64,000 nt of DNA, taken from Trichoplax adhaerens. Its lineage: Eukaryota; Animalia; Placozoa. The stretch lies in the NCBI RefSeq assembly GCF_000150275.1, contig NW_002060947.1, positions 3,958,335-4,022,334 on the forward strand. Reading direction: 5' to 3'. Shown one piece after another: positions 15,497-46,004 of the stretch (within the stretch, counting starts at the first letter, position 1; each line of letters begins with the position of its first letter). The notes under the pieces were generated by a model. The model did not search any database. It saw only the letters and a list, made by a program, of their open reading frames with translations, and was not told the DNA's origin. The position numbers were made by a program, and so were the translations under genes.

Positions 15497-18400
15497 ATGT
15501 TGAAGAAGAGTAAAGAGGAAGATTTATTTGCTAAGCCGCAATCCATACCCTCTAAAAGGTAAATGTCTTCAACCAATTCTCAAAGCATTGACGATATACA
15601 GTAATACAGTGTAGAGCTTTCAAGTGATAGCCTACAGAGTTATGTAGTTGCATTCGTTTGATAGCGATATGTCTTTCGAGATGCAGCTAAAGTGCATAGA
15701 TCAATTTCCATGGTATGCTTACATTCAAGATTGATTTTAGAGTCCATGGATTGATGAATATCATGACTGATTGCTAGGACGGTAGTAGCAACATAAATTA
15801 TAGCGATAAACTGGATACTTGCAGGAGTAGTACAGTATCGGCTAGAGATTGTCTTTAGAGAAGCAGCTAAAGTGCTAGATCAATTTCCATGATATATTTA
15901 CATTCAAAATTGATTTTAGAGTTCATAGATTGATGGATGTCATGACTGATTGCTAGGACGGTAGTAGCAATGTAAACTATAGCGATAAACTGGATACTTG
16001 CAGAAGTAGTACAGTATCGGCTAGAGATTGTCTTTAGAGAAGCAGCTAAAGTACATAGATCAATTTCCATGATATGTTTACATTCAAAATTGATTTTAGA
16101 GTTCATAGATTGATGGATGTCATGACTGATTGTTAGGATAGTAATGGCAACGTAGATTATAGCTTTGAAATAAAATTGATCCTGTAAACTTGATACTTGC
16201 AGTAGTAATATACGTGTACATTGTACGCTCAGTACAGTATCGGCTGCAGATTGTCTTTAGAGAAGCAGCTAAAGTGCATAGATCAATTTCCATGATATGC
16301 TTACATTCAAAATTGATTTTAGAATTAATGGATTGATTGATGTCATGGCTGATTACTAGGACAGTAGTAGCAACGTAAATTATACCTATGAAATGAAATT
16401 GATTCTATAAGCTTGACACTTGCAATACTCTTAGTAATATAGGTACATGTCCGTTGTATAGTATTAGCTGTAGATTGATTGCGTGATGAGTAATGCATAC
16501 AATATAGCTATGTAGCAGCCTGTCAAGCTTCGTAGCTTGTTACTAAATATAATATTGTAATTTAATAAAAAAATAGATCAAGTGAACTGAGAAGGCAAAG
16601 TGTGGATGATGCACAATTACGTGGCAGGTTGTTCAAGAAATTTGAATCATTTTCTGATCGGATTCTCATCCAGTAATTACCGTAATTTCTATCAGCTATT
16701 GTTCTAACTCAACTATGAATCTGTATTTTCAATTTGTAGTATATTGATTACTGGCGCTGGTCGCTCAGTTAGCGTAGCTCATCTTAATAATTTGTCGAGG
16801 TAAGTTTATATTATACTGGAAAAATTCCGTATGAATTTTGCTTGTGTATTTGTGTATTTATATTGACTACATCTCATGATATTGCAGTGATCATACGTTA
16901 ACAGTATTTTAAGACAGCGTCAGACTAGGCTGCATGTAGTGTAGAGGTATAACTACAGTTGATAGTTCGGAAAATCGATAATATAAAGGCATACGAGCTA
17001 ATTGTACGTGCTCTAAGTGATAGTTTGTATGCTATTGAATTATTATGGATAAGCTCATGATATACCATATATGCATAGTTATACCGACGATATCTTATTA
17101 TGCTGCAATGATCAGCAATTTCGTAGTAAGTGGTTATGACGTGCAAGTCTACATACAGATGATTGATGGAGAAAAGTGCGAGTATAAAAGCAGTATTAGA
17201 TAATTTCAGATAGTACATTACTTCTAGCTGTTAGTTTATTATACCATACAGTATAAGTACATTTCAATGGCTAAATGATTTAGATGTGTTACGATATTAA
17301 TTAATACATTAACTCCTTGCTGGAATTAATTATCGTAAGAGTATTATATTAAATATGACGGATTTTAAACTCTAGAAATGTAGTATAGCTTCAGTGATGT
17401 TCATAATTGCCTTAGATTTCGTTTAAATTGATTGATGAGATATTGCAAAGCATGCAAGGTCACTTACTGTAAAATAGATTTTCAATAGTTTTGATCGGAT
17501 TCGGATACTTATAGTCTTGATAAACTGTAAATTATACGAGGCTGAATTAGGCTATGAGAAACATAGTTGATATTTGTTAATTAATCATTGTTTATCATAT
17601 TGATGCGAGCAAGTGTTAGTATCTATTTATGAACAATGCTATTCAAATACAGCCGCTATGTATAAGAATTTTTGTGTAACTTCATTGCTTAATAATATCT
17701 CTCATACATTAGCTGTATCAAACTGCACCGATGCTAGGTTAATCACATGTTCGTACGTTACTGTATTTTTTCATTGCATTTGCGTTGCACTGTATATCGA
17801 GTTTTTGCCGTAATATATATATATATATATATATATACAACTTCTATACTCGCACGCAGTACGTTTTAATACTTTGATGGCTTTTTTGATTTAACAAAGG
17901 CCATTAAGTGCTAGTAACTTGGCTGCCTTATCGGATTCTAACTTATCAGTTCAGGTCAGCTATACATGTGTTATATAACTAAAAATGCACGTGTCTCAAG
18001 ATTTATAGCAGACATTTGGACTGTTGCATTTATTTTAATTACATATGAATTCGTAATACGTTATGACTTGCGTAATTATTTGGATTCTTTATTCGGCGGT
18101 ATTTCAGAATACGTTGTAACTTAAGTAATTGTTTGGATTCTTTATTCAGCGATATTTCATGCCGTTACTGTTAGTTTGATACTATTGATGACATACATTA
18201 TAATTTTAGGCTGCTCTCTTACCAAGGAGTTATAACAAACCAAATACTAATACTTCACAAGCAAAGGTAGGAGTGTGAGTTAAATTTCTAGTATTTAATG
18301 AAAATGATTAAATTTTTAACTGAGAGATTATATTTCAGCAATCGTTTGTTTCCTTGGTCAGCTGGTGAGTGATAGAAAACTTACGACGAAAGTTGTTACC

Positions 18401-24797: not shown

Positions 24798-27700
24798 TTA
24801 TCTTCTTCGTGATCCTCCCTAAACAATAAATGAAAGTAGTATTAGAGACAAAGAGAAATTGAAATTCGTGTTAACAAGTACTCAGATAACGATCAGGCAG
24901 AATTTATGTAACTTCTGATAATCACGACAATAGTGCATAGAAGTTTGAAAATTGGTGAACCTTTAGATTTTTTAAGGCTTCGATTTCCTCTTGTTTTTTA
25001 GTCAGTTTATCATTCATATTGCAAAGGTGCTCGCTCATCATGCTTAATTGGCTATCGTAGCTACGAGTTGTTGTTTGTAGTTCATCCTAACACGAAATTT
25101 AAGGACAGATGTTACACAAAATCAGTGAAGTGATGAGGTATAGCGACATGATTTTTATAAAGTAGCTGGTACCCACGACGTCTTAGCTTAAATGTCGTCG
25201 TGGATATGATTATTTTATTTATTCTTACCTTTAATGACGAGATAATAGTCTGTGCGTTTTCTAGGTCTAGGTTTAATTTTTGTTTAAATTTCTCGGATAG
25301 TTCAAGACGTTTTTCTAGTACTCGACTCTAATATCGTAATAATTTTTAATGAAAAAAAATTTAAGGCATAAGCAGTGTTTTCCTTATAAAGAGATACTTG
25401 GAGACGGTTTTTTATATCTAGTAAGTTTTTACCTCGGAGAAAAAAGACGTTGCTTTACTATCAATCGCTTGAAGCTGGTAGCGTTTCAGTTAAATATTTA
25501 GCATAGGATAGTCACGATGCAGTTGATTAGTCAATAATTAAATATGCTTACATTAACATTTCATAATTCTTGCTGAATAATAAGTGCTTTAAGCATATAC
25601 CTTAGCATTAAGTTCCATTATTCTCGCAGAGTAATAATTCTTGATCAAATTTTCTCGGTTGCTTTCAATATCTTCATTCTATCAAAGGAGATCAAGAATA
25701 TAAGAGACCTTGAAATAGTTTCTGAACTTCAGACCTAGTAATATTGTTAGTAACTTACTCCTTCATCGCTTAAGAAATCGGTAACATCATTTACAGTTCC
25801 TAACTAAAGCGGGATATAGTACATTCGGATAATTATAAACATGAAGTGGCTTAATGATAACATACAAAATGAATTCAGGCTATAATAAAATTACAACTTG
25901 ATTACTAACATTTGTGGAAGGTTGTGTAACATCAATTAAATGTTGACTTGGCATTGCCATCGTAGGAACAGCTAAGCCTTGAATTAATGCAGTGTCTGTG
26001 GAAGGCTAATAAAAGAAAAATCATTTTGCATGCGTTATTTTATGAACCGGTCGCGTGAAAATGATGAAAAAGGCAATTTGTAGTTAAGTATAGATTCCAC
26101 GAATACCACGGTATACCTTATCGATTCCATTCTCGATCACGCTATCAGAATTTTGAGGATTTTGTCTTAAAGTAGTATTTTCTTGCTGTAGATGTGCCAG
26201 TTTCTGGTAAATAAAATTACGGAAAAAACATTTTGATAAGTATTTATTGTTCATAATTTATATGAATTATTTTCATCTTTATAGTTATCGCGTAAGTTTT
26301 CTAGGTAACTTATTACCTGTTGCATTTTTTCAAATTTAACTTTACTTAATTGGTATTCTAACATCCAATGTTCTTTTTCCTAAGTATTGTTTATATTTTT
26401 AATTTCTTATTTTCTTATTAACGAATTAAACTAATTGCAGCCATATTTCCTTACTTTCTCTAACTGAGTGATACGCTCCCTTTTACCAGCAACCTAAACA
26501 TTTTAAAGATAATAGAAAGCATAGTTTATCGACTTATAATTTTACAATTACCACAAATTAAATCATTAAAATAAGCAATACAGATTGTAATTTTCGAATG
26601 AAATACCTGTTGACTGAGGGTCTCAGTATTCTCGGTCGAACTCTGAACCTTTTTGTAGTTTTCTATTGCTACTGCGTACGGTATTGATTCAGGGAGCGGC
26701 TATTTAAAAATTTTAAAATATGTTGATTAAAATTACTATTAATCAATGAATTGCTAAATTCTTAAATGGTTATACAGTCTCAGAATCGCTTGTTGATACT
26801 TAGTGAGACCTTTGCTAACGTCGTCATATAGTTGACTGCTCGTCTTCTAAAAGATGAAACGGTGTCGGAAGCTACCCCCAACTGAAATGCATAGAGACTT
26901 TTAGTTAGCAAGTGATTTACTACGATTAGAAATGAATCCTATTTGATCTTACCTTACTATCGCTATTTCGAAGACGCGATATGAAGAATGTTAAATTATT
27001 TCCTATAAATCTAGAAAGCTGGAAGTATATTTAACGCAAAAGCCAGTACTTCACATTAGTTCCAAAGTTTAAATTAAGTTGCTAGTCTTTCATAAAATAG
27101 GAGCCATAAATTGCAACAGCGATCAAGCAATAAATATTGATTTACCTTGTCTGCGGTAGATATAAAAGCATCAACAGATGACACTATGCAGTCATTAGTT
27201 ACTTTAAGACCCTAAAGGAGAGATTATTTAAGAATGGAGAGGAAACTTACAGGTATAATAGACAGTTCATAAAATAGTTAACATTATTTATTTTTAATGT
27301 TATCAAACCTCCGACATCCAAGTTAGCATTTGCTCTTCAACAGTTTTCGACTTGTACCTTCCCATCATGTCTACATCACATAATAACGGTTACAATCCTT
27401 ACGTAATTTAACGTAAACGAAAACTTTACAAATTTACCTTTAGCACATTTCTGTATGCTATTTAATGAAGTAACGATATGTTTTAGCACAGCTTCTTGAC
27501 TTGAAAGAGGGTAATCATGTGTCCTATAACCTTTAAATTGTAAAGTTTAGTAGTTTTGTTAGCCTTCGTATCCATAATTTCGAACGATATCACGAGTATA
27601 AACAGTATTTCTTACTGATGTTGCCTAATATCTGTACATAGTTATCCAATTTTATAAAGGCGACGCTAAAATAGTGAAACGCATCAAGGAATTCTTTGTT

Positions 27701-30700
27701 TTTCCGTTGAAGAGAGCTTGGATTGGAAAAATGTTCATTCACAGCATTTGAGCTAAAGGTCATTTTTAAGATAGAGTGGAATTTAATACGAATATAAATT
27801 CGTATTATTATAGACATCCAACCGAGTAATTCTTATGAAATTAGGAGAAAATTATCTAGTAGAATTTATCTTACCATAGCTTTTGATATGGTAGTAATCT
27901 ACTGAGATAGGTAACAAAGCTGTGAAATGCTTGACTTACTTCGCGTAAGCCGAGGACGCCTTCCTAGTTATTTAAAAAGGATAGTTAGATCCGTGGAATA
28001 CTTCATAACGAGTTAAAGGAGTTGAATATCATAGAATAGTTCTAACTAGTGTAACTTGTGGGTTGTCTCCAATCTTTTGATACATAATCGCAAAAGCTTG
28101 TTCACATGGATTTAAATATGAGCTATTCTCTTGTAGTTGCGATTTCATCTATGATTTTTTTAATATATTTCGAGCATAAGATTTTTAAGAATGATAGTTG
28201 CAAGATATACAAACAGTATAATCAACCAAATTCATGTGTGGCAACCTTATTATGAATAGCAGAGATTATAGAGTTTACGGCGAAATTTTCAGATATGGCT
28301 GTACAATGCTGCATAGTATTTTGTTAATTCAAAAATTGCGTCAGTATTATCAAATGATTAGTAATACAGAATGAGATGTAGTTATTACGCAAATAATAGT
28401 TGCAACGCTACCTGGAGCATATATGTTAGCCAAGAGCTTAAAGTCTTGAAAAAGTCTCCAACTAAGGTATTTGCTTCACCAAGAAGAGCTTTAGCTTTTA
28501 GCTTTAAGGAAAGATCATTAATTATATCGTTATATAGAGCTTATCGCATACTCACTATCTCATTTAATTATAATTATTGAAAGTTAACAACTTCTTTAAT
28601 AAAATTGCTAATGTGTGTGATATAATCTTACTCCATCGCTATGATCGTGCGTTGGTACGTCGAGCGCTATGAACTCCTTATTTCCTAAAATGCAAGAACA
28701 CTACAGTAAAAATCTACTATTTTTCGCTTAATACAAGTGAGCATAAATATTTTATTTAATGTGCTACATGAAGGGTAAGGATTACCTTTATCGTTAAACA
28801 TATTATCATTAAACCCAACAGTGTCTGCAGGAAAAGATACAGTAGTTATTTATCAGTAACATAGTGTAGTATTACGATGCACAAATTGTGACTGAAGTAC
28901 CTGCTACGTTTGCCCGCTCAAGTCTTATTGAGAGCAATTGTCTTTGACTAGTCACGATAATATATTAGATATGGGATTAGTTTAACTTCTCTTTTATGTA
29001 TCAACGAGAATCTGTGTGATTATTACCTGCTATCCAGCTTCATTTTTTGTTCTTCTAAGTTATTTTGCAAAGTTTGGACCTTCAGCTAAGATTTAAATAA
29101 ATACAGGGAATTAGGGAATGAAATTTAAATCGATTTTTAAATTTTGATTGTTGCTAATTTTAATACCTCGAGCGCAGCATTTTCTCGTCGTGTAGTTCCT
29201 AGTTGCTCTGCTGTAAATGAGGAGGCTTGAGCACTAATTTTGATACATAAAATGGAGGTTAGCCGATAAAAATTCCGTAAAACTAAAAAGAAATCTGTTT
29301 TCAGGTGATAATCACGCTACAAGGAAGGAAAGAGTACCTTTCAAGTTCAACAATTCTATCTTGCAAGGATTGTATTAAACGTTGATATTCCTGGTCACTT
29401 AGGTTACGATCTTCTTCGGAATTAGTTTTCTCTTGCGATTGTATCCTAAGGCGATAACGCTTCAAGTTATTACAATAGAAAGATTGGTGACTAAGCACTT
29501 TACTTTGTCAAATAGCAAGATTATAAGCAAATAATTTTAGAAATTTTTGCTTGACGCACTCCTCTAACTGTATAATTCGGCCTTGCAAAGACCTAATAAT
29601 TTGTTCATGTCCATCAGATGATGAAGACTTGTCATTTAGTGCACTATATAAAATATTACATTATTGTCATTAATACATATATATTTATAGCAGTATAATC
29701 TATTGGATTACTTAAGAACCGTTAGTATGAGATTCCGCTAAAAATAAACCTTTCTAGTTCCGTGATACGATCTTGCATGGATTTGATTATAATTTCTTGA
29801 TCATCTTTTTCACTTTGATTATTTACAGTATGTTGCCTAATGTTTTAAAGTTTTAGAGAATCTTACTTATGTCGTAAATAAGATTTGTTTACGCTAGATA
29901 AGAGTATTAATTTACTGTTCGTTTGCAGTCAATCGTTGCTGCAGCGAGTCGATAGTATTCTGATATTGATCTGCCGCCTCTTTAGCTCTTATTTCAACAA
30001 AATTCATTTCTCTTCTGTATCGCCTACATTAAAATTGTTGGTAATTATGATAATAATTTATAGTCATAATTCCTGTGTTGAGTACAAGAACAGGTTACGT
30101 AAACTTACTCTTCCAGATCATTATTGGCACTCTTTAAGGTTGATATCAACTTTTGATAGTGGGAAATATCTTGTTGCTTACTATTCTGTACACTGAAGGT
30201 GAAATAGCTTTGTCATTAATCGTATTTCTTCACCTACAGATATCGGTATTTTTTGTTAATAAATGGGTAACTCGCCTTTCCATTTCTAATTGCTTGATTC
30301 TCTGTTGTAGAGTATTAATAACGGATTGATAATCTTCCGGTTGTTGATTTTGGTTGATCGTACTGCTAGATACGGAAAAAAATTAAACTATATTATAAGT
30401 CTAATTGTTAGATAATTTGTTTTCGCATAGCAAATGGACGTCTCTAACGGATTATAGCAGTCATAACACAGTATTATTACTATTATGATCAGCTACTATA
30501 ATGATTAGCACCAAGATCTTACCTTTCAAGGTTAACAATTTTATCTTGTAATTCTTGAATAGTTTTAAGGTGTTTTTCATTTAGTTGTCTGGTTAGGGAT
30601 TCCTGAAATTCCCTTTCGGTAATGACTTTCCTATATAGCATAAATATAATGTAACGTAGCCAATTAGTTAATGCCACTAGAGTTGTAATAACTCAAGAAT

Positions 30701-33700
30701 AAAATTAAATTTTTATGGGCCATGAATGTTATATTACTATAGAACTGCCTTTAATATTAGCTCAATTAAGTTACTATACCGCTCCAGACTTTCAACTTTT
30801 TTCTCTAATTCCGTTACGATTTGTCGGTGTTGGGTGGTTAATTGGTTATCATTCTGTGAATTATCTCTTAAACGGCTGAAGATTAAATATGAAACAAGCT
30901 TTACTTTGTATTCTAAGGAATTACTGTAGTCAAATATTTACATTATTATGGTAGAGACAGTAGACGAACGTATGATGCATAGCAAAATGTATTACTTCTC
31001 TAGGGCTGTAATTTGGTCAGTGAAACCCTTCTCTCTGGATTTAATTTCTTGTTGCCTTTCTTGATAATCTTTTAGCACACTGAAAGATGGGATTAGATGA
31101 TTAATAAGTTAAACCATAGATATATGAAAAAAGGTAGTAATAGCAAAGGTGTTACGTGACAAAACGTAAAAAACGTCGTATCACCAATTCAAATATTTTT
31201 AAAAAATATCTTACAGGCAACGATATATACTGCATTACCTTTCTAGACCTTTATTTTTTTCCTGTAGTTGAAGAAATTTTTGTTCAGTCTCCCGCACCTG
31301 GTTTGAATTGGTGCTGTATCGGCCATTCAATTTGATATAATCATCAACCATGAAAGTGTTCAAACAGAAAATTTTCTTTAGCGAATGGTATCAGTAAGGT
31401 AGATTAAACAAATATCAGGTACTAATTTGTGAAGTAGATTACGCTATATGGTACCTATTTTGTTCTTGTACTTGGCCCCTTAATGATATTATAATGGACG
31501 CTTTATTTTCATTTTCTCCTTTTAATGCGGTTAAATTTCTAAACCGTTTTCAAATTGGACAAGCTAGTTATTATTTAGTTTTTGTAATAAGATTGGAAAG
31601 AATACTTGCTAATATAAGAATCTTTATTGTAGATATTATAACTGTACTTTTGCAACTCCACAATTCTGTCTTCGTAGCCTTTAATGGCATAATCATGACG
31701 CTCCGTTGCTTTTTGCAGCTTCGGTAAATATAAATATAAATATAAGGAGAGAGTATGGTATCTTTGGATAGTGTACGCAAGGTGCAAGGAAAGGGCAGAG
31801 ATAGGGACGAGAAGTGGCCGTTCAGTGCAAAATAATGTGTAAGCTTATCATTTTTTCGGTCATTCTACTATACAGCACCAATGAAACTGTATAGTATCCT
31901 GTACTGCATAAAGTCAATCAATTTCGTAGCTAATTTGGGAGTCAGTCGTAGACAGTAAGGTGTACCACTGCAGACATACGATACAGTTAAAATGACCAGC
32001 AAAATAATCGGTTATGACATTATTAATATAGTGAACGACCATTTCCCGTCCGTGAAAAAGGGTAACTGGTTCTGAGAACCTTGGTAAAGTATTAATTATA
32101 TAAAATCATAATCATTACACAACTTTCTATTGTAAGATGAGTTCGTATGCTACAGCATCATCTAAACTTGTAGAGTTAAATTACTTGTTGAGAAAGATTA
32201 GCGTTTTGTTGCCTTTGTGTATTTAGTTCTTGATCAAATACAGCGTTAGAGCGAGTTGTATTCTAGAAAAATGACGAATTTATAGTTATATTAATTACGA
32301 TAGATTGGGATAGTTTTACAATGTTACTGTGCGAGTTCTATAAATTTATAAATGGTATTCATCTGGTACTGTGCTAAGCAATAAGGTTTTGATATCCTTA
32401 CATCCTTGGAACGTTCCTTCAATTCTTGAATCTCGTTCTCATTCCTTGCGATAGTACCCTCTTTCTCTTGTAGTGTCTCCTATTTATATCGATTAAAGAT
32501 TATTTCATGACGTTGATTATCTGTGGCCATTATACTGTAATAATTTATGACACAACAATTTACAAGCTACCGAATTTTACTGTGTTTCAAACCTCAAGAG
32601 TAGCATTTTTGGCTTTTTCATCAACAACTGCTTTCTTTAGTACCGTTATTTGACCGCGTTGCTGAATAACATTCGCATAACAAAATTTAAGGTTAATAAT
32701 GGCATTAAAGATATGACTGAGAAGACTTTGATAATAATCTATTTTTCTGCAGCGTTTCTAGATTACATGATAAATCTGAATATAAATCTGGGTGGTCTTA
32801 CATTATAGAATTATAAAAATAATGTTATAAGTTAATAAATTCAATTTAGAACGTAAATTAATATAGAATAGTCAGAATACTCGAATATATTTATAACTGA
32901 TCTCATTAGCTCATGACAACACATAATGTAAATTAAATATCTTACGAGTCTTATTGAATATTTTATTCATTATATTTGAAAGTTTCATGTATAATGTTTC
33001 AGTGCATCCAATGCTAGTTAAAACTGTGATCTAAAGTAGCCTACTTCAATATGATAAATATGTATGAGGCGTCGCTTTATACTTCGCAAAATGTAAACTG
33101 TACATAAAATTCGCAACCGTTTAGCATAAATTTCTATACCACTATTTCTGGCCGAAATAGAAAGATATTCTGGTATATTAAATTAATTAAACATATGTAT
33201 TCTGACTAGCTATTCTTTAGCTTCTTTTCACGTATTGGTGCGAATATCATGTACTATTGTGGCAATATAGTACGGGCATACTATTCTTTAGGCATTTAAG
33301 TATTACTGCTCACATTAACTAATTGGCATTCTTAATGGTCAACTTATATTACACCATTTGATAGACATCATTTTAGTTTGATACGCATATTCAATTATTT
33401 AATGTCTCAAATATTATATTACATCTGGATACTTTGTGATAGCCTAATTATCAAATTACAGTCGTAAAAGGTATCATACTAATCAATTCGATTTCTGGAA
33501 GCATTTCTATGACGAGCAAGCAGCTATTCTATGTAGTCCTATGTACTGACAGTTGCTGCGCTTGAATTGGCGATCGACTCGTGTGTGACTACAACGCAGA
33601 AATGTAGAGTACAGCTATAGGTCGACATAAAAGAAGTTAATGGAACTGTAAAGTGAGCATACCTATGCTTTCCTAAGAAAATCAGTACATTGTCAAGCGC

Positions 33701-34364
33701 TACCGTAGTTTCAAACTAACTGCGGTTGGGGAAAATTATCTATAGCCATCAACTACCGCCGTATTCAATAGAGATTAATATTACGTTGACGGTTGTGGAA
33801 ATATACTAGTTATAATACTCATACAACTGTTGGGCGTTTAACATGTCACAACTTTGATTTTGTTCTATGTTATACCAGCTTAAGGTTAGTTAATAAAAGT
33901 TGCAAAAAGAATGGTATTTATTTTATTTTGACGAACCAGACTTCAATTGGTTAAACTAAGATCGATATTACTTACTTTCCTCTTACTGTAATTACATACT
34001 GCACTTGCATACTCCAAACGTGGTGCTATCGACGAAGTGTGGTGTTTTGTACAGTATACAGCGTGGTACGACAGATATTGGTAGTTGAAAGTTCTAATTT
34101 GTAGAATCAATCTACTTTAATTGATTCCATGAATTTAGAAGATGGTATACCTTGATATAAGATACATTGCGATCTGTAGTCCTATTTTATATTACAGTGT
34201 ACTGTATTTTGACTTATTGTACTTGTTATATTATTAAGACGGGCCTTAGCTAAGTATGATAATATTGATGCAATACACCCCCATTAACATTGATAGAAAT
34301 CCTATACCTTTGCGTATTCTTGTAATAGCTTCTGATACTTCTGATTTACATCAGTAGAACTCAT
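24798..34364 (-). CDS. PPP1R21: Protein phosphatase 1 regulatory subunit 21 (KLRAQ1/CCDC128; FERRY subunit Fy-2) orthologue with an internal exon-repeat expansion
   Basis: Exon 1 (34308-34364) is MSSTDVNQKYQKLLQEYAK and exon 2 (32593-32661) is QRGQITVLKKAVVDEKAKNATLE, matching human KYQKLAQEYSKLRAQNQVLKKGVVDEQ. Other matching segments are AVFDQEL, ALDVPTHD, LQENSSYLNP, LKVTNDCIVSSV, KEHWMLEYQL and LQAIDSKATSFFSE. The C-terminus is DELQTTTRSYDSQLSMMSEHLCNMNDKL...GGSRRR* (stop 24798-24800). Confidence 0.93.
29338..31538 (-). repeat. Array of 11 paralogous symmetric (phase 2-2) coding exons inside PPP1R21
   Basis: Exons at 31455-31538, 31239-31313, 30996-31079, 30780-30875, 30523-30630, 30276-30365, 30109-30192, 29916-30023, 29750-29836, 29560-29643 and 29338-29445. 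All lengths are multiples of 3, all are stop-free, and most end in an I-x-x-L-Q-x-[RK]-I-x-x-L-E-like motif. Confidence 0.85.
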
Positions 34365-34539: not shown

Positions 34540-35420
34540 ACGCGTACACGTCGAGTACAGTATAGTATTAGTGAGTTACAGTACTGTATACTGTACAGTA
34601 AAGACTCAAAGTACTGTACTGTATAGTAAAGACCCACAGTACGCTACAGTACATGTACTGTAAGCGCATATCAATACGTCATCGACTATACTGCAGCTAT
34701 CGACGGCACTAGAGACCCTCCATGAGATAGAGGGTTTCTAGACGGTACCAGTGTCGAAGTGGGCGGAGTACAGTACACTCAGTAGAGTACTGGTAACTTA
34801 TGTACTGTACACTGTACACTACAGTAGAGCACAGTACTTTGTGAATTAATTAATAAATTTAAATTATTTAATTTATATACAGTATACAGATAATTAAGAA
34901 ATATCCATCAAAAAGTGAAAAAAGGAGTACTACTCCAGGCCTATATACTGTACAGTGTACAGTACAGTACTGTACGCGTACACAAAGAGTACTGTACAGT
35001 ACAGTACAGTACTGTACTGTATAGTACTGTATTAGTGAGTTATAGTACTGTACACTAGTGTACAGTACTGTACAGTAAAGACCCACAGTATACTACAGTA
35101 CATGTACTGTAAGCGCATATCAATACGTCATCGACTACAGTACTGTACTGTACAGTATACTGCAATGTACAGTACTGTACAGTACTGCAGCTATCGACGG
35201 CACGAGAGACCCTCTATGAGATAGAGGGTCTCGAGACGGCACCGGTGTCAAAGTGGGCGGAGTACAGTACACTCAGTAGAGCACTGGGAACTTACTTAAC
35301 TACTGTATGTACTGTACTGTACTTTGTGCATTAATGAATAAATTTAAATTATTTAATTTATACTGTATATACAGTTAATTCAGAAATATCCATCAAAAAG
35401 TAAAAAAAAGATGGACTAGT
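34540..35420. repeat. Duplicated 370-400-bp block upstream of PPP1R21, with GTAC[A/T] arrays, a GAGACCCTC/GAGGGTCTC hairpin and a GC box
   Basis: AAAGACCCACAGTA..CTACAGTACATGTACTGTAAGCGCATATCAATACGTCATCGACTA...GTGGGCGGAGTACAGTACACTCAGTAGAG...ATATCCATCAAAAAGT is present twice (about 34565-34930 and about 35026-35420). Confidence 0.9.
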
Positions 35421-39320: not shown

Positions 39321-39393
39321 GTGATAGGGCATCTTTCAACACATTAATGTGTGTGTATCTGGCGGCTAAACCTTGTAGCGAGACCGAAGGAAG

Positions 39394-40494
39394 ATGGCAG
39401 CCCCTTCCAATCATTATAGCGTGACTGTTTCTTCTACGGCTTCTACGAATGATCCAAGAATGGCTACGCCAATAAATGTTCAGAGTCAATTCGCACAAGT
39501 GCATAAAGTAGTTCAATTTCAGGATCCTAATCAACAAGTACAAGCTAATGTTGTCGGTGATAGAATGGGAGGCAGCCGTATGCCTCCGCCTCAACCGTGG
39601 CCTTTACCGGAAAGCGGCGGCCAAGTTCCTTGGCCAGTAACTACAGCTACTTCTCAAAATTTAATCGATATCAAACCGCATAGGCATGAAGATGGTCAAG
39701 TAACTATGGCTGATCCTATACCTTTGCATGCTCGCCCTCAATTAGTCCCAGCACATGCGCATCCAGGTATGATGGAGCATCCCCGCTGGCCTACAGGACC
39801 TGCTGCAGGACAAGTTCATCCTGATCAGAGATCGCATCTAAATGCCAATGCACAAATTGCTTATCCTATTAATGGTTGTGTACCTGGCCAAACGATGCCG
39901 TCTCATGTTGGTCCTCCACCACCACATATGAGAGAACAACGTGAGAACGATAAGCCAGGTAATGAGAATCAATCGGAAGACACACCCACATCAGACGACC
40001 TAGAACAGTTCGCTAAGCAATTCAAGCAGAGGAGAATCAAGTTAGGCTACACACAAGCTGATGTTGGCCTTGCTTTAGGTAGCTTGTACGGTAATGTTTT
40101 TAGCCAGACAACGATCTGTCGTTTTGAGGCTTTGCAACTTAGCTTCAAAAATATGTGTAAATTGAAACCGTTACTGAACAAATGGCTTGAACAAGCCGAT
40201 AGCAATAATAGTAACCCAAGTGCTGTTGATAAAGTAGCAACGCAAGGAAGGAAGCGTAAAAAGCGTACCTCTATTGAAGTAGCTGTAAAAGGAGCCTTAG
40301 AAAATCATTTTCTTAAACAATCTAAGCCATCTGCACAAGATATTGGTTCATTAGCCAACACTCTACAATTAGATAAAGAGGTTGTGCGTGTATGGTTCTG
40401 TAACAGGAGGCAGAAAGAGAAACGACTTAATTCAGCAATGTCAGGTAATGGCGAGGATTCACATTTATTGGTGGAGTCACAGATGAATCAGTAA
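39394..40494 (+). CDS. POU3: POU domain class 3 transcription factor (Brn-1/2/4, Oct-6 family), single exon, 366 aa
   Basis: POU-specific domain [71 protein letters not shown], a class III-type linker, and homeodomain [12 protein letters not shown]...[15 protein letters not shown]. The N-terminus MAAPSNHYS resembles that of vertebrate POU3 proteins. Confidence 0.97.
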
Positions 40495-42684: not shown

Positions 42685-43380
42685 ACTGTACTGTAAAGTG
42701 TACAGTACTTTGCACACGGCGTACTGAGCAGAGACTGTACTGTGCTACAGTACTGTACAGTACAGTACAGTATAGTCCTTCGTTATCGAGTTAGGCTTGC
42801 CACACCTTTGAATTGGCTAACTGTACAGTACAGTACAGTACTGTACTGTGTTAGGTCCTGTACAGTACACTGTACAGTGTACAGTACAGTACCATACTCA
42901 ACTGCAGTACTGTAGAGACTCTTTATAAGAGACTACAGTTTTATTAGCCAGTTCAGTACAGTAGTTACTGTAACTTGTCTGTGTTCTCATTGAACCGAAT
43001 TTTATTAGTCATTCATCAAGTTAAACTCATGCATAAGCTGCTTACGAAATATGCTTACATGAAAACTGATTCATCAGTATATATACTGTACGGTAGAATT
43101 ACCGAAATATCAAAATGAGATCAATAAAGGTTGTACAATAAATAGCTATCCATAACGGCAAGAAGATTTACAGTACAATGTGTACACTGTACAGTACTGT
43201 ACAGTAGTAGTCTATATCATCCGAGCTTGTAAGTCTACAGTGAAAAGTCATATTCGCTACAGTACGAGTCACGCCCATCCCGCCATGTATTTTAAACACT
43301 GCTGTACTGTACTGTACAGTACAGTACAGTACCGGACAGTACAGTACTGTACACTGTACAGTCGTGTACTGTACGGACTG
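42685..43380. repeat. (GTAC[A/T])n low-complexity arrays upstream of RPS4
   Basis: Dense CAGTA/TACTG runs, for example at 42823-42892 and 43303-43375. Confidence 0.85.
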
Positions 43381-43395
43381 TATTTTAGCGTTCAG

Positions 43396-43436
43396 TATTA
43401 TAAGCAAAGACTTCTGGGAATCAGGTCCTTTTGCCC
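43396..43436 (+). promoter_or_regulatory. RPS4 TATA-like element and polypyrimidine (TCT/5'TOP-like) initiator
   Basis: TATTATAAG at 43396 lies about 30 bp upstream of TCCTTTTGCCC (43426-43436), which is about 35 nt before the ATG-only first coding exon. This layout is typical of ribosomal protein genes. Confidence 0.55.
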
Positions 43437-43466
43437 TGCTGGCTGTTTCTACGATAGAAAAGAAAA

Positions 43467-46004
43467 ATGGTAGGTATCAAGATCATCGTGAGGTGGAATC
43501 ATCTGTTTTATATCGTTAACATCGTTCATTTAATCCTCTTTTTATCTGTAAATTTGATCGTATCGTACATTTTTTTTAAAAGTTATGATGATAGCAATGT
43601 ATTTTTAAATTGTAAAACGTTTTTATAGCACCGTTTTAAAGTGCGTGTCGTTTGTTTCAGTTCAATACGGTAGACAACCTAACGTGGTTCAGTCGACTCT
43701 CCACTGTGTTAAAGTAGAAGATATAGTTTGTTCTAGTCCACTATACTGCATTAAATTCGATGTGTATCTGGATCTAGTTTTAATTTTCAAGTTATTTCTA
43801 AATTTTACATACAGCATCTTTTACATCATGCTGAGTGCAGAGAATTTCAAAATCACTTGATATGGCTTGAAATAAGGTGTTACGGTACGCGTATACTTTT
43901 ATTAATAGAGCGCCATTTGTAATTGAACTCATTTAGGCACGAGGCCCAAAGAAGCACTTGAAGCGTCTTCATGCGCCTAAGCATTGGATGCTTGATAAGC
44001 TTTCAGGATCATTTGTGAGTAGATTTATCATCTAATGATAGTTCGATTCTTAATTAATCTTTGTCAGTAATCACGATGGCTGTGTTTCTTCATGATTTTA
44101 CAACTGAGTGGGCAGACCAAAGCGTGTACGAGTATCCGGCTTTCAGCTCAGTATTGCAATTTACTGTAAAACTACGGATACTGTAGTTTAATATTACAAA
44201 TTGTTTTAGATCATCAATTAGTAATATTACAATATTTGTTACCTGGGTTGTACAGTATAGGCAATAAGCTGCATGAAGACACTATTGTGATATAAATGAG
44301 CTGATTACGAAATCATCCATTCACGGCTGGTATCATTCACTATTATAAATATTACAGTAAACTATGTACGATAGAGTACAGCATACATACTGTACGTAAT
44401 GTATAAAGTAGTTCAGTTTTGATCTATTTTTGCTCTATACACTATTTTATGTCCCTGGCAGTTCTACTATACCGTATTCATAGAGTTTGTATTTATACAC
44501 AGTTGTAAAGTAGTTACCATACTATACTCCTTTAGTAGACTCTCGTGGTATGCTGAACTAATGGTTTGCAACTTTACACTGCTCATAGAATCGGTTCATT
44601 TGCAAACTAAAGTTAGACTAGATCTCGAGATCCACAATGTAGTTTATTTCATAGCGAATTTATCAAGCTTGCAGGTCTTTAGCTTCCATCAATGAATTAT
44701 CAGTTTTAGAAAGCTGAGATGACAAGCATATTTATGCATACGTATACGATAGTTATAGCTAATCCCTAGGCAATAAATTTTACCGATTGTCCAAATACTA
44801 TGTCGTATTTACAGTAAACAAACACATGCTTACAACAAAGTTCTGTCGTTGAAATTTTAAAAATTTCTGATTAAACTATGTGGATTACTTAGCTGATAAA
44901 CTAATGCTTTATGCGCTTACTATTTTAGGCTCCTCGCCCGTCTTGTGGTCCGCATAAATTTCGTGAATGCTTGCCCTTAGCTATTTTTATGAGAAATCGT
45001 TTGAAATATGCGTTGACATATGATGAAGTAAAGAAAATCGTCAAGCAGCGTCTGATCAAGATTGACGGAAAAGTTCGCACGGACATCACCTATCCGGCTG
45101 GGTTTATGGGTGAGTATTTCGTAGCATGGTTTGTTTATATAAGTTGCATTACACTCTTTACTGCGAAATATTGCCTTAATTTATACTACCTTGTATAATA
45201 ATTAAAATTTATAAGCGCTTAGTACCCGCGATATACATTATGTTGTACTGTAATTGTATAGTATATGGATATAGCTTTCCAGATATATTTATGGTTATTT
45301 AGTCAAGATACTAGTTAAATACGTAGAATAGTAATTGATTAATCTTTATACTAATGTTAACAATTACATGATTGATCCCTTTTCCTAGATGTAATTGCTA
45401 TTGAAAAAACTGGAGAAAACTTTCGTTTACTTTATGACGCTAAAGGTCGATTTACTGTTCACCGCATTACGCCTGAGGAAGCATCTGTAAATATGATCAT
45501 AGTTACAGTTTTTCGTGATATGATTGGTAGGTTATAGCTCTTGGAATTAATTTTATAATTTTTAATCATTAGTACAAGTTATGCAAGGTGAAACAACTTC
45601 AAATTGGCGCGAAGGGTATCCCATATGCAGTAACCCATGACGCTCGTACTATTCGTTATCCTGACCCATTAGTTAAAGTGAATGATACCATCAAGGTTGA
45701 CCTTAAATCTGGAAAAATAACCGACTTTCTCAAATTTGACAGTGGTAATCAAGTTATGGCAATTGGCGGACGTAACATGGGTAGAATTGGGGTTATTACT
45801 CATCGTGAACGACATTCTGGATCTTTTGACATCGTTCATGTCAAAGATGCCCAAGGGAACGCCTTTGCTACGCGATTGACTAATGTGTTCGTAATCGGCA
45901 AGGGTACTAAGCCTTACGTTTCTTTGCCTCGTGGTAAAGGTATTCGTCTGACAATTGCGGAAGAACGTGACAAACGTTTGCAAGGGAAGCAATCAAATAT
46001 GTAG
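43467..46004 (+). CDS. RPS4: 40S ribosomal protein S4 (eS4), 5 coding exons
   Basis: Exons: 43467-43469 (ATG), 43937-44014 ([26 protein letters not shown]), 44929-45109 ([17 protein letters not shown]...DITYPAGFM), 45388-45486, and 45573-46004 (...[16 protein letters not shown]...[19 protein letters not shown]). Confidence 0.97.

What the first reader, a model, noticed from the sequence alone, without database searches (positions are those of the whole stretch)
29338..31718. PPP1R21 (FERRY Fy-2) carries 11 duplicated, frame-neutral phase-2 exons that build a 336-aa segmented coiled coil
Seen: between the conserved exon 31648-31718 (..HDYAIKGYEDRIVELQ) and exon 29167-29233 (..RRENAALE) lie 11 exons of 84, 75, 84, 96, 108, 90, 84, 108, 87, 84 and 108 nt (1008 nt in total). 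Every one starts and ends in phase 2. Each encodes a polar linker plus a related heptad module: KASIIISLRGQVQEQN, TEQKFLQLQEKNKGLE, IKSREKGFTDQITALE, HRQIVTELEKKVESLE, HLKTIQELQDKIVNLE, YQSVINTLQQRIKQLE, YQKLISTLKSANNDLE, YQNTIDSLQQRLTANE, QEIIIKSMQDRITELE, HEQIIRSLQGRIIQLE, YQRLIQSLQDRIVELE. Known: in human PPP1R21 the equivalent segment (HKHVEAELRSRLATLE to IEKLQNDKAKLE) is only a few dozen residues, and Fy-2 coiled coils scaffold the Rab5-effector FERRY mRNA-transport complex. Inference: serial exon duplication greatly lengthened the N-terminal rod. Because any subset of exons can be skipped in frame, the array could act as a splice-tunable length ruler or combinatorial cassette.
Basis: partly seen in the sequence, partly recalled or inferred. 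Interest (0 to 1): 0.78.

Follow-up and report, generated by a model that had tools for sequence, protein, structure and literature searches.

The report
Duplicated exons lengthen placozoan FERRY arm
In the simple animal Trichoplax, eleven old copies of one exon are all spliced into the mRNA of PPP1R21, the scaffold of the FERRY mRNA-transport complex, making its front arm about 500 residues long instead of about 210 in relatives; it likely acts as a fixed, longer rod rather than a splice-adjustable one.

Summary
Eleven exons (84, 75, 84, 96, 108, 90, 84, 108, 87, 84, 108 nt; all phase 2-2) lie in a 42-exon Trichoplax PPP1R21 gene. All eleven are spliced in, in order, in contigs of 6 RNA runs from 4 studies. 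Each ends in a 16-residue coiled-coil module descended from the end of exon 5. The copies are old: synonymous sites and introns are saturated. The N-terminal arm is 500 residues, against 200-223 in 47 of 52 orthologues, and it lacks a conserved block that holds human Leu75.

The tunable-ruler reading is not supported. No exon skip is seen, splice sites are ordinary and introns are short. Frame neutrality is a precondition for keeping tandem exon copies, not evidence of skipping. Contigs drop rare forms, so rare or cell-specific skipping is not excluded.

Most likely this is a fixed, longer, partly hinged dimeric rod (up to about 74 nm versus 31 nm). The public H2 protein already holds the array; I found no paper on it. 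The scan had not noted this gene, but noted similar arrays in other genes. Verdict: a new variant of a known kind, moderate interest.

The parts
24798..34364 (-). PPP1R21 (FERRY Fy-2) gene, 42 coding exons, 3255 nt, 1084 aa in my model
34308..34364 (-). exon 1 (57 nt), start codon, KLRAQ-type tip
   Evidence: loose ends of RNA contigs at 32663 read into it
32185..32661 (-). exons 2-4 (32661-32593, 32479-32402, 32262-32185). About 35-45 residues present in orthologues are missing around the exon 3/4 border
   Evidence: RNA joints 32478/32592 and 32262/32402 in 3 runs; alignment; conserved motif in 43 of 48 orthologues, absent here
31648..31718 (-). exon 5 (71 nt, phase 0-2); its last 16 codons are the positional orthologue of the module that was copied
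31455..31538 (-). array exon R1, 84 nt, phase 2-2
31239..31313 (-). array exon R2, 75 nt, phase 2-2
30996..31079 (-). array exon R3, 84 nt, phase 2-2; one amino-acid-changing difference at 31043 in 5 of 6 RNA runs and in P0002
30780..30875 (-). array exon R4, 96 nt, phase 2-2
30523..30630 (-). array exon R5, 108 nt, phase 2-2
30276..30365 (-). array exon R6, 90 nt, phase 2-2, GC donor, tandem acceptor (87-nt form in one run)
30109..30192 (-). array exon R7, 84 nt, phase 2-2
29916..30023 (-). array exon R8, 108 nt, phase 2-2
29750..29836 (-). array exon R9, 87 nt, phase 2-2
29560..29643 (-). array exon R10, 84 nt, phase 2-2
29338..29445 (-). array exon R11, 108 nt, phase 2-2
29167..29233 (-). 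exon 17 (67 nt, phase 2-0); 9 residues shorter than the matching orthologue segment
28246..28308 (-). 63-nt in-frame exon in the six-helix bundle that the public H2 model omits
   Evidence: only in-frame AG..GT candidate in that intron; fills a gap of about 20 residues against orthologues; not checked in RNA

Best explanation
Eleven ancient tandem copies of one exon are all spliced into Trichoplax PPP1R21 mRNA and add 336 residues to its N-terminal arm, which likely forms a fixed, longer, partly hinged two-chain coiled coil that holds the conserved N-terminal tip farther from the FERRY core. Shown: the exons, their inclusion in the dominant assembled RNA, their descent from the module at the end of exon 5, their age, and the 500 versus about 208 residue arm. 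Inferred: each module (His/Tyr at d, Ile at a, Leu at d, Ile/Val/Asn at a, Leu at d, Glu at e, often Arg/Lys at g) clasps its twin on the partner chain. The linkers have lost sequence memory but mostly keep lengths that preserve helical register, and the Ser/Asn/Gln-rich ones act as hinges. Because the human C-terminal coil binds Rab5 and the N-terminal coil points the other way, the gain (up to about 43 nm net) would extend reach away from the endosome.
For: Inclusion. Module homology beyond a heptad-matched null. All 11 modules score higher on the orthologue profile of module A than of module B. Age: 114 identical codons against 123 expected among 306 identical-residue pairs; intron similarity equals shuffles. 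Retained core columns after synonymous saturation imply selection on the coiled-coil face. Register: 10 of 11 module spacings give 3.5-3.63 residues per turn, where 6 of 12 possible lengths would (p = 0.006 if independent; 0.04 counting distinct lengths). The AlphaFold monomer is helical through most of the array, with breaks or low confidence at polar linkers (mean pLDDT 62). Arm length is 200-223 in 47 of 52 orthologues, as expected of a spacer coil (PMC5082667, passages). Human Fy-2 coils dimerise and project in opposite directions (10.1101/2021.06.21.449265, parts 1-4 of 9 read).
Against: No function was tested. Linker core positions are hydrophobic in only 10 of 40 cases against 16 of 120 elsewhere (p = 0.07), so the rod may be floppy or fold back, and real reach could be far less than 74 nm. 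The register window was chosen after seeing the data. An RhxxhE-type motif ends 4 modules strictly and 7 of 12 loosely; it is enriched in trimers, though many carriers are dimers (PMC13060782, passages), so the oligomer state is not settled. Whether the other FERRY subunits exist in this animal could not be checked. Contigs hide rare isoforms, and one RNA run has an unexplained branch at the R3/R4 junction.
Confidence: 0.55

Rival explanations
1. Tolerated growth. The array expanded by repeated slippage or unequal crossing-over, and selection only kept the rod from unfolding; the extra length has no job of its own.
For: Linkers keep no trace of either flanking exon (p = 0.50 and 0.60). The same arm has lost a block conserved in 43 of 48 orthologues and 9 residues of exon 17, which fits relaxed constraint.
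Against: Arm length is tightly held in 47 of 52 orthologues, including cnidarians and a unicellular holozoan. All 11 exons survive intact despite synonymous saturation.
Confidence: 0.2
2. Larger mRNA-binding surface. The copies multiply part of the N-terminal coil that binds RNA in human FERRY, and make up for the lost basic segment.
For: Human RNA binding fell almost in proportion to N-terminal coil length, and lysine cross-links cluster on the coils (10.1101/2021.06.21.449265). The Trichoplax arm has 77 Lys+Arg against 34-41 in six orthologues.
Against: The array is net acidic (45 Lys+Arg, 61 Asp+Glu). The arm's lysine fraction is 0.076 against a mean of 0.110, lower than in 45 of 48 orthologues. 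The module positions that are conserved are core and flanking salt-bridge positions, not an outward basic stripe.
Confidence: 0.15
3. Splice-tunable ruler or cassette. Subsets of exons are skipped in frame in some cell types or states and set the arm length.
For: Any subset can be dropped in frame. Frame-preserving skipping is enriched in nearly all animals (PMC6142364). One run shows a 3-nt acceptor shift. One joint hidden is not accounted for by the canonical list.
Against: No skip joint in the 4 runs whose joint table is complete, and single full-array contigs in two more, while minor intron-containing forms were kept. Splice-site proxies equal the other exons and introns are short. Skipping goes with weak sites and long introns and is lower in T. 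adhaerens (PMC6142364). The branch in X6 starts exactly where the spliced R3/R4 junction matches the 5' untranslated region at 11 of 12 bases, which suits a template switch better than splicing.
Confidence: 0.1

Closest known systems
PPP1R21 / FERRY subunit Fy-2 (human, PDB 7ND2; 10.1101/2021.06.21.449265)
   Same: All three Pfam domains above cut-off; the only PDB sequence hit, E 6.7e-90; best fold hit, E 2.3e-10; the junction before human Leu250 (intron 8, PMC10039818) falls at the same place here.
   Different: N-terminal arm of 500 versus about 208 residues; 11 extra exons; loss of the block holding human residues 73 to about 105, which includes the patient missense site Leu75 (PMC13452748 passage; numbering); 31 non-array exons against 22 in human.
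Tandem duplication of symmetric exons that build repeat or rod proteins (collagen and nebulin recalled; Trichoplax FAM172A and skate CENP-E from unchecked earlier notes)
   Same: Same-phase 3n exons, one repeat unit per exon, read through in series.
   Different: Here the array sits in a protein whose arm length is otherwise nearly fixed from unicellular holozoans to vertebrates, and the unit is a conserved module plus a free linker of 9-20 residues.
Alternatively spliced modular exon arrays (titin PEVK exons, recalled; tandem duplicated exon substitutions, PMC9741552, abstract start only)
   Same: A run of homologous frame-preserving exons.
   Different: No skipping or mutually exclusive use is seen; all copies are joined in one path.
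Length-conserved coiled-coil spacers and rulers such as ROCK2 and golgins (PMC5082667, passages)
   Same: Orthologue arms diverge in sequence but keep their length.
   Different: This lineage breaks the rule with a 2.4-fold longer arm; no ruler function has been shown for Fy-2.

Membership tests
PPP1R21 / Fy-2 | N-terminal KLRAQ domain (PF10205) | tested here: met
   42.2 bits, cut-off 27.3; weaker than orthologues (94-102 bits) because a conserved block is missing
PPP1R21 / Fy-2 | six-helix bundle (PF10212) | tested here: met
   133.1 bits, cut-off 25; Foldseek best hit 7nd2_A, TM 0.67 by target length
PPP1R21 / Fy-2 | C-terminal coil with the Rab5 and Fy-1/3 region (PF21636) | tested here: met
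   147.6 bits, cut-off 27.3; aligned to the human chain end. Binding itself not tested
PPP1R21 / Fy-2 | homodimer through the terminal coils | not testable with these tools
   only the sequence pattern (Ile/Val/Asn at a, Leu at d) bears on it
FERRY complex | presence of TBCK, C12orf4, CRYZL1 and GATD1 partners, and mRNA binding | not testable with these tools
   no whole genome held; the FERRY paper places Fy-4 and Fy-5 in chordates (passage); its Table S1 could not be seen
Tandemly duplicated symmetric exon array | same phase on both sides, length divisible by three | tested here: met
   11 of 11
Tandemly duplicated symmetric exon array | homology between copies beyond generic heptad likeness | tested here: met
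   19.0 vs 3.3 +/- 2.0; 11 of 11 closer to module A
Tandemly duplicated symmetric exon array | flanking intron sequence copied with the exon | tested here: inconclusive
   intron similarity equals shuffles; expected if the copies are old
Alternatively spliced exon cassette array | skipping or mutually exclusive isoforms | tested here: not met
   none in contigs of 6 spliced runs; contigs drop rare forms and one hidden joint is unexplained
Alternatively spliced exon cassette array | weak splice sites and long flanking introns | tested here: not met
   donor 6.09 vs 6.28, acceptor pyrimidines 0.58 vs 0.60, introns 79-159 nt vs median 106 (crude proxies)

The most novel reading that the evidence does not exclude
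Placozoan FERRY has been rebuilt at its RNA-facing end: a segment needed in humans was dropped and replaced by an eleven-unit clasp-and-hinge rod that reaches much farther from the endosome, with exon subsets skipped in rare cell types (such as fibre or peptidergic cells) to set the reach. That would be a splice-tuned mRNA-transport tether in an animal without neurons.
Probability: 0.08. Interest if true: 0.78.

Novelty: new variant of a known kind. Interest (0 to 1): 0.42.

Why it matters
Human FERRY binds RNA roughly in proportion to the length of this arm, and the arm is about 208 residues in nearly every orthologue measured, yet nobody knows what its length is for. Trichoplax supplies a natural variant that is 2.4 times longer and also lacks the segment where a patient missense change (Leu75Arg) lies. 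Swapping it into reconstituted or cellular FERRY would separate three ideas: length as spacer, length as RNA surface, and the role of the missing block. As gene evolution it is a clean but known process. The protein is already in public annotation, so the surprise is moderate.

Tried and rejected
Dimer prediction of residues 70-520, two copies, no alignment: score 0.24, under the mark of 0.32, no verdict; not used for or against.

Other placozoans: not found by a 42-residue C-terminal query (24 hits among 39 candidates), the N-terminal region at near length (only P0002 among 7992 scored), shorter proteins (0 of 7244), the 50% representatives (150 of 394 listed) or metagenome contigs (58 pattern matches, none confirmed). 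So the expansion cannot be dated within Placozoa. No sponge or ctenophore was among the 20 proteins whose names I looked up (3 had no name and 1 had no organism).

Hybrid-exon origin (copying a stretch that spans the phase-2 intron, so that linkers come from exon 17): no support (p = 0.50 against the orthologue linker profile; 5'-anchored likeness p = 0.05 for protein, 0.10 for DNA). Whole-exon-5 origin: no support either (p = 0.60). Both remain open because the linkers are saturated. Exon tree: all supports 58 or lower, order of duplication unresolved.

Tandem Repeats Finder sees no array; the repeat finder gives only a four-copy 41-nt family at exon ends. Atlas look-alikes are generic coiled coils. 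Run X4 behaves as DNA and was not counted. Fourteen of the 20 listed runs were not counted: X4 and 13 never laid.

Papers: 10 searches. FERRY complex with Trichoplax gave 0 papers. PPP1R21/Trichoplax/placozoa at two of three terms gave 1,165 papers, and none of the 15 listed holds PPP1R21 (a weak negative). The preprint supplements, including the FERRY orthologue table, could not be seen; its methods dropped orthologues of very different length (passage).
Full report
What is there. The finding lies in a minus-strand gene from 34364 to 24798. A 42-residue exon near its end matches Pfam PPP1R21_C and finds a 1062-residue protein, P0002, annotated as PPP1R21 of Trichoplax sp. H2 (RDD45972.1). My translation of the first 20 exons matches it except for one substitution and a three-residue stretch at the R6/R7 junction, where the public model misses a GC donor. 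The window is therefore from a Trichoplax genome, and the array is already in public annotation. The full model has 42 exons, 1084 codons, canonical sites and no internal stop. P0002 carries all three family domains above cut-off, and human Fy-2 (PDB 7ND2) is its only PDB sequence hit and best fold hit.

Checking the observation. The eleven exons have exactly the lengths given, sum to 1008 nt and are all phase 2-2. Twelve phase-2 introns in a row contrast with 2 of 29 elsewhere in the gene. Of 20 runs listed I laid seven. Six gave spliced contigs, from four studies; one (X4) gave only genomic pieces. One search lists all twelve junctions in X6, X8, X10 and X17 with no hidden rows. X8 and X17 each give a single contig, while X6 and X10 are split over several. 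In one search, X9 and X13 each have one 3078-nt contig: eight array junctions are listed, and the remaining 344 nt equal R3 + R2 + R1 + exon 5 + 30 nt. The exons are real and joined in order in the dominant assembled RNA. Contigs are not molecules and drop rare forms.

Are they copies? Aligned at their 3' ends, the eleven modules and the end of exon 5 score 19.0 per pair on average, against 3.3 +/- 2.0 for 16-mers from orthologue coiled coils chosen for the same hydrophobic pattern. With the array left out, the protein aligns cleanly to eight bilaterian orthologues, and the end of exon 5 sits on their first module, A. Orthologues have a second, similar module, B, 32 residues later in 46 of 48 cases; I did not print which two differ. 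All eleven array modules score higher on A than on B, and six score 14-21 bits on A, better than exon 5 itself (1.0). So the array preserves the ancestral module better than its parent. The copies are old: identical residues share a codon no more often than codon usage predicts (114 vs 123), and introns are no more alike than shuffles. The linkers resemble neither flanking exon, so how the first phase 2-2 copy arose cannot be read, and the exon tree is unresolved. Human has eight exons before the junction at Leu250 (PMC10039818, passages), where this gene has ten non-array exons, so two introns here are absent in human. That the phase-2 intron is one of them rests on recalled human exon sizes only.

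How unusual is the length? Among 172 other proteins held at that point, 52 had both an N-terminal and a pre-bundle anchor. Their spacing is 98-223, median 208, with 47 between 200 and 223; Trichoplax has 500. The five short ones may be partial gene models; I did not check. The set includes Hydra (200), Xenia (205), Chromosphaera (210), amphioxus, a tunicate, a fish, an annelid and arthropods. Capsaspora, Pigoraptor and a choanoflagellate missed an anchor cut-off but show no array by total length or printed sequence. No other placozoan, sponge or ctenophore was identified. The arm has also lost sequence: a motif present in 43 of 48 orthologues is absent, about 35-45 residues are missing near the exon 3/4 border, and RNA joins those exons directly in three runs. 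By the numbering of the human chain, the gap covers Leu75, the site of a patient missense change (PMC13452748, passage).

How it likely works. The module core columns are Ile at a, Leu at d, Ile/Val/Asn at a and Leu at d. This is the usual pattern of parallel two-chain coils (recalled), and human Fy-2 dimerises through this arm (10.1101/2021.06.21.449265; parts 1-4 of 9 read). Ten of eleven spacings keep 3.5-3.63 residues per turn (p = 0.006 or 0.04, window chosen after the fact). The linkers' own core positions are poorly hydrophobic (10 of 40). The AlphaFold monomer is mostly helical, with breaks or low confidence at the Ser/Asn/Gln-rich linkers (pLDDT 62). I read this as clasps joined by part-helical hinges. 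At 0.1485 nm per residue (recalled; the review gives about 1 nm per heptad) the arm could grow from about 31 to 74 nm; this is an upper bound. In human FERRY the C-terminal coil binds Rab5 and the N-terminal coil points the other way, so the gain would be reach away from the membrane. That step is inferred.

Rivals. A larger RNA surface is attractive because human RNA binding scales with arm length, but the array is net acidic and lysine-poor. Tolerated growth fits the free linkers and the losses, but not the tight length elsewhere. Splice tuning finds no support: no skip joint although minor intron-containing contigs at depth 2-11 were kept, ordinary splice sites and short introns, and lower skipping in T. 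adhaerens (PMC6142364, passages). The only splice variation seen is a 3-nt acceptor shift at R6.

One loose end tells against full certainty. In X6 the contigs break 9 nt before the R3/R4 junction, with depth 100 upstream and 202 downstream, and hides one joint more than the canonical list needs. The break starts exactly where the spliced junction matches the 5' untranslated region at 11 of 12 bases (34456). That suits a reverse-transcriptase template switch, but this is not shown.

Novelty. I found no paper on this array (the preprint supplements could not be seen), and the scan had no note on this gene. It has unchecked notes on similar arrays in Trichoplax FAM172A and skate CENP-E. Other papers seen: 10.1101/2021.06.20.449167, PMC6370506, PMC5082667 and PMC13060782 as passages; the rest as search listings only. 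The process is known; the case is a new variant, notable for breaking a widely conserved length in a disease-linked scaffold. Interest 0.42.

Noticed in passing
window 28308-28246 (-): A 63-nt in-frame exon that the public H2 model omits; it fills a gap of about 20 residues in the six-helix bundle against orthologues. Not checked in RNA.
   Followed up: partly
window 30276 and 30365/30362 (-): Array exon R6 has a GC donor used in all 6 spliced runs, which the public model misses, and a tandem acceptor with a 3-nt-shorter form in one run.
   Followed up: yes
window 32402-32262 (-): The most conserved block of the KLRAQ domain and the basic linker after it are missing from the spliced RNA; the gap covers human Leu75.
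   Followed up: partly
window 34456-34445 and the 30996/30875 junction (-): An 11-of-12 base match between the 5' untranslated region and the spliced R3/R4 junction, exactly where run X6's contigs break; one hidden joint is unexplained.
   Followed up: partly
proteins P0002, P0039, P0054, P0078, P0084, P0085: Full-length Fy-2 proteins occur in Trichoplax, cnidarians and unicellular holozoans. This sits badly with the published view that Fy-2 was extended in chordates (passage); the short insect and nematode forms may be losses.
   Followed up: no
window 24798-34364 (-): 31 non-array exons against 22 in human, with 23 of 29 non-array introns in phase 0.
   Followed up: no
window 39379-40494 (+): A 371-codon open frame that reads as a POU-homeobox gene, apparently without introns (identity recalled from motifs, not searched).
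   Followed up: no
window about 15640-16400: A tandem repeat of roughly 114 nt shows up as repeated translations in several frames.
   Followed up: no
window about 34580-35330 and 42700-43500: Dense short AC/GT-rich repeats lie upstream of this gene and again near 43 kb.
   Followed up: no
window 44929-45198 (+): An open frame that reads as part of ribosomal protein S4 (recalled, not searched).
   Followed up: no
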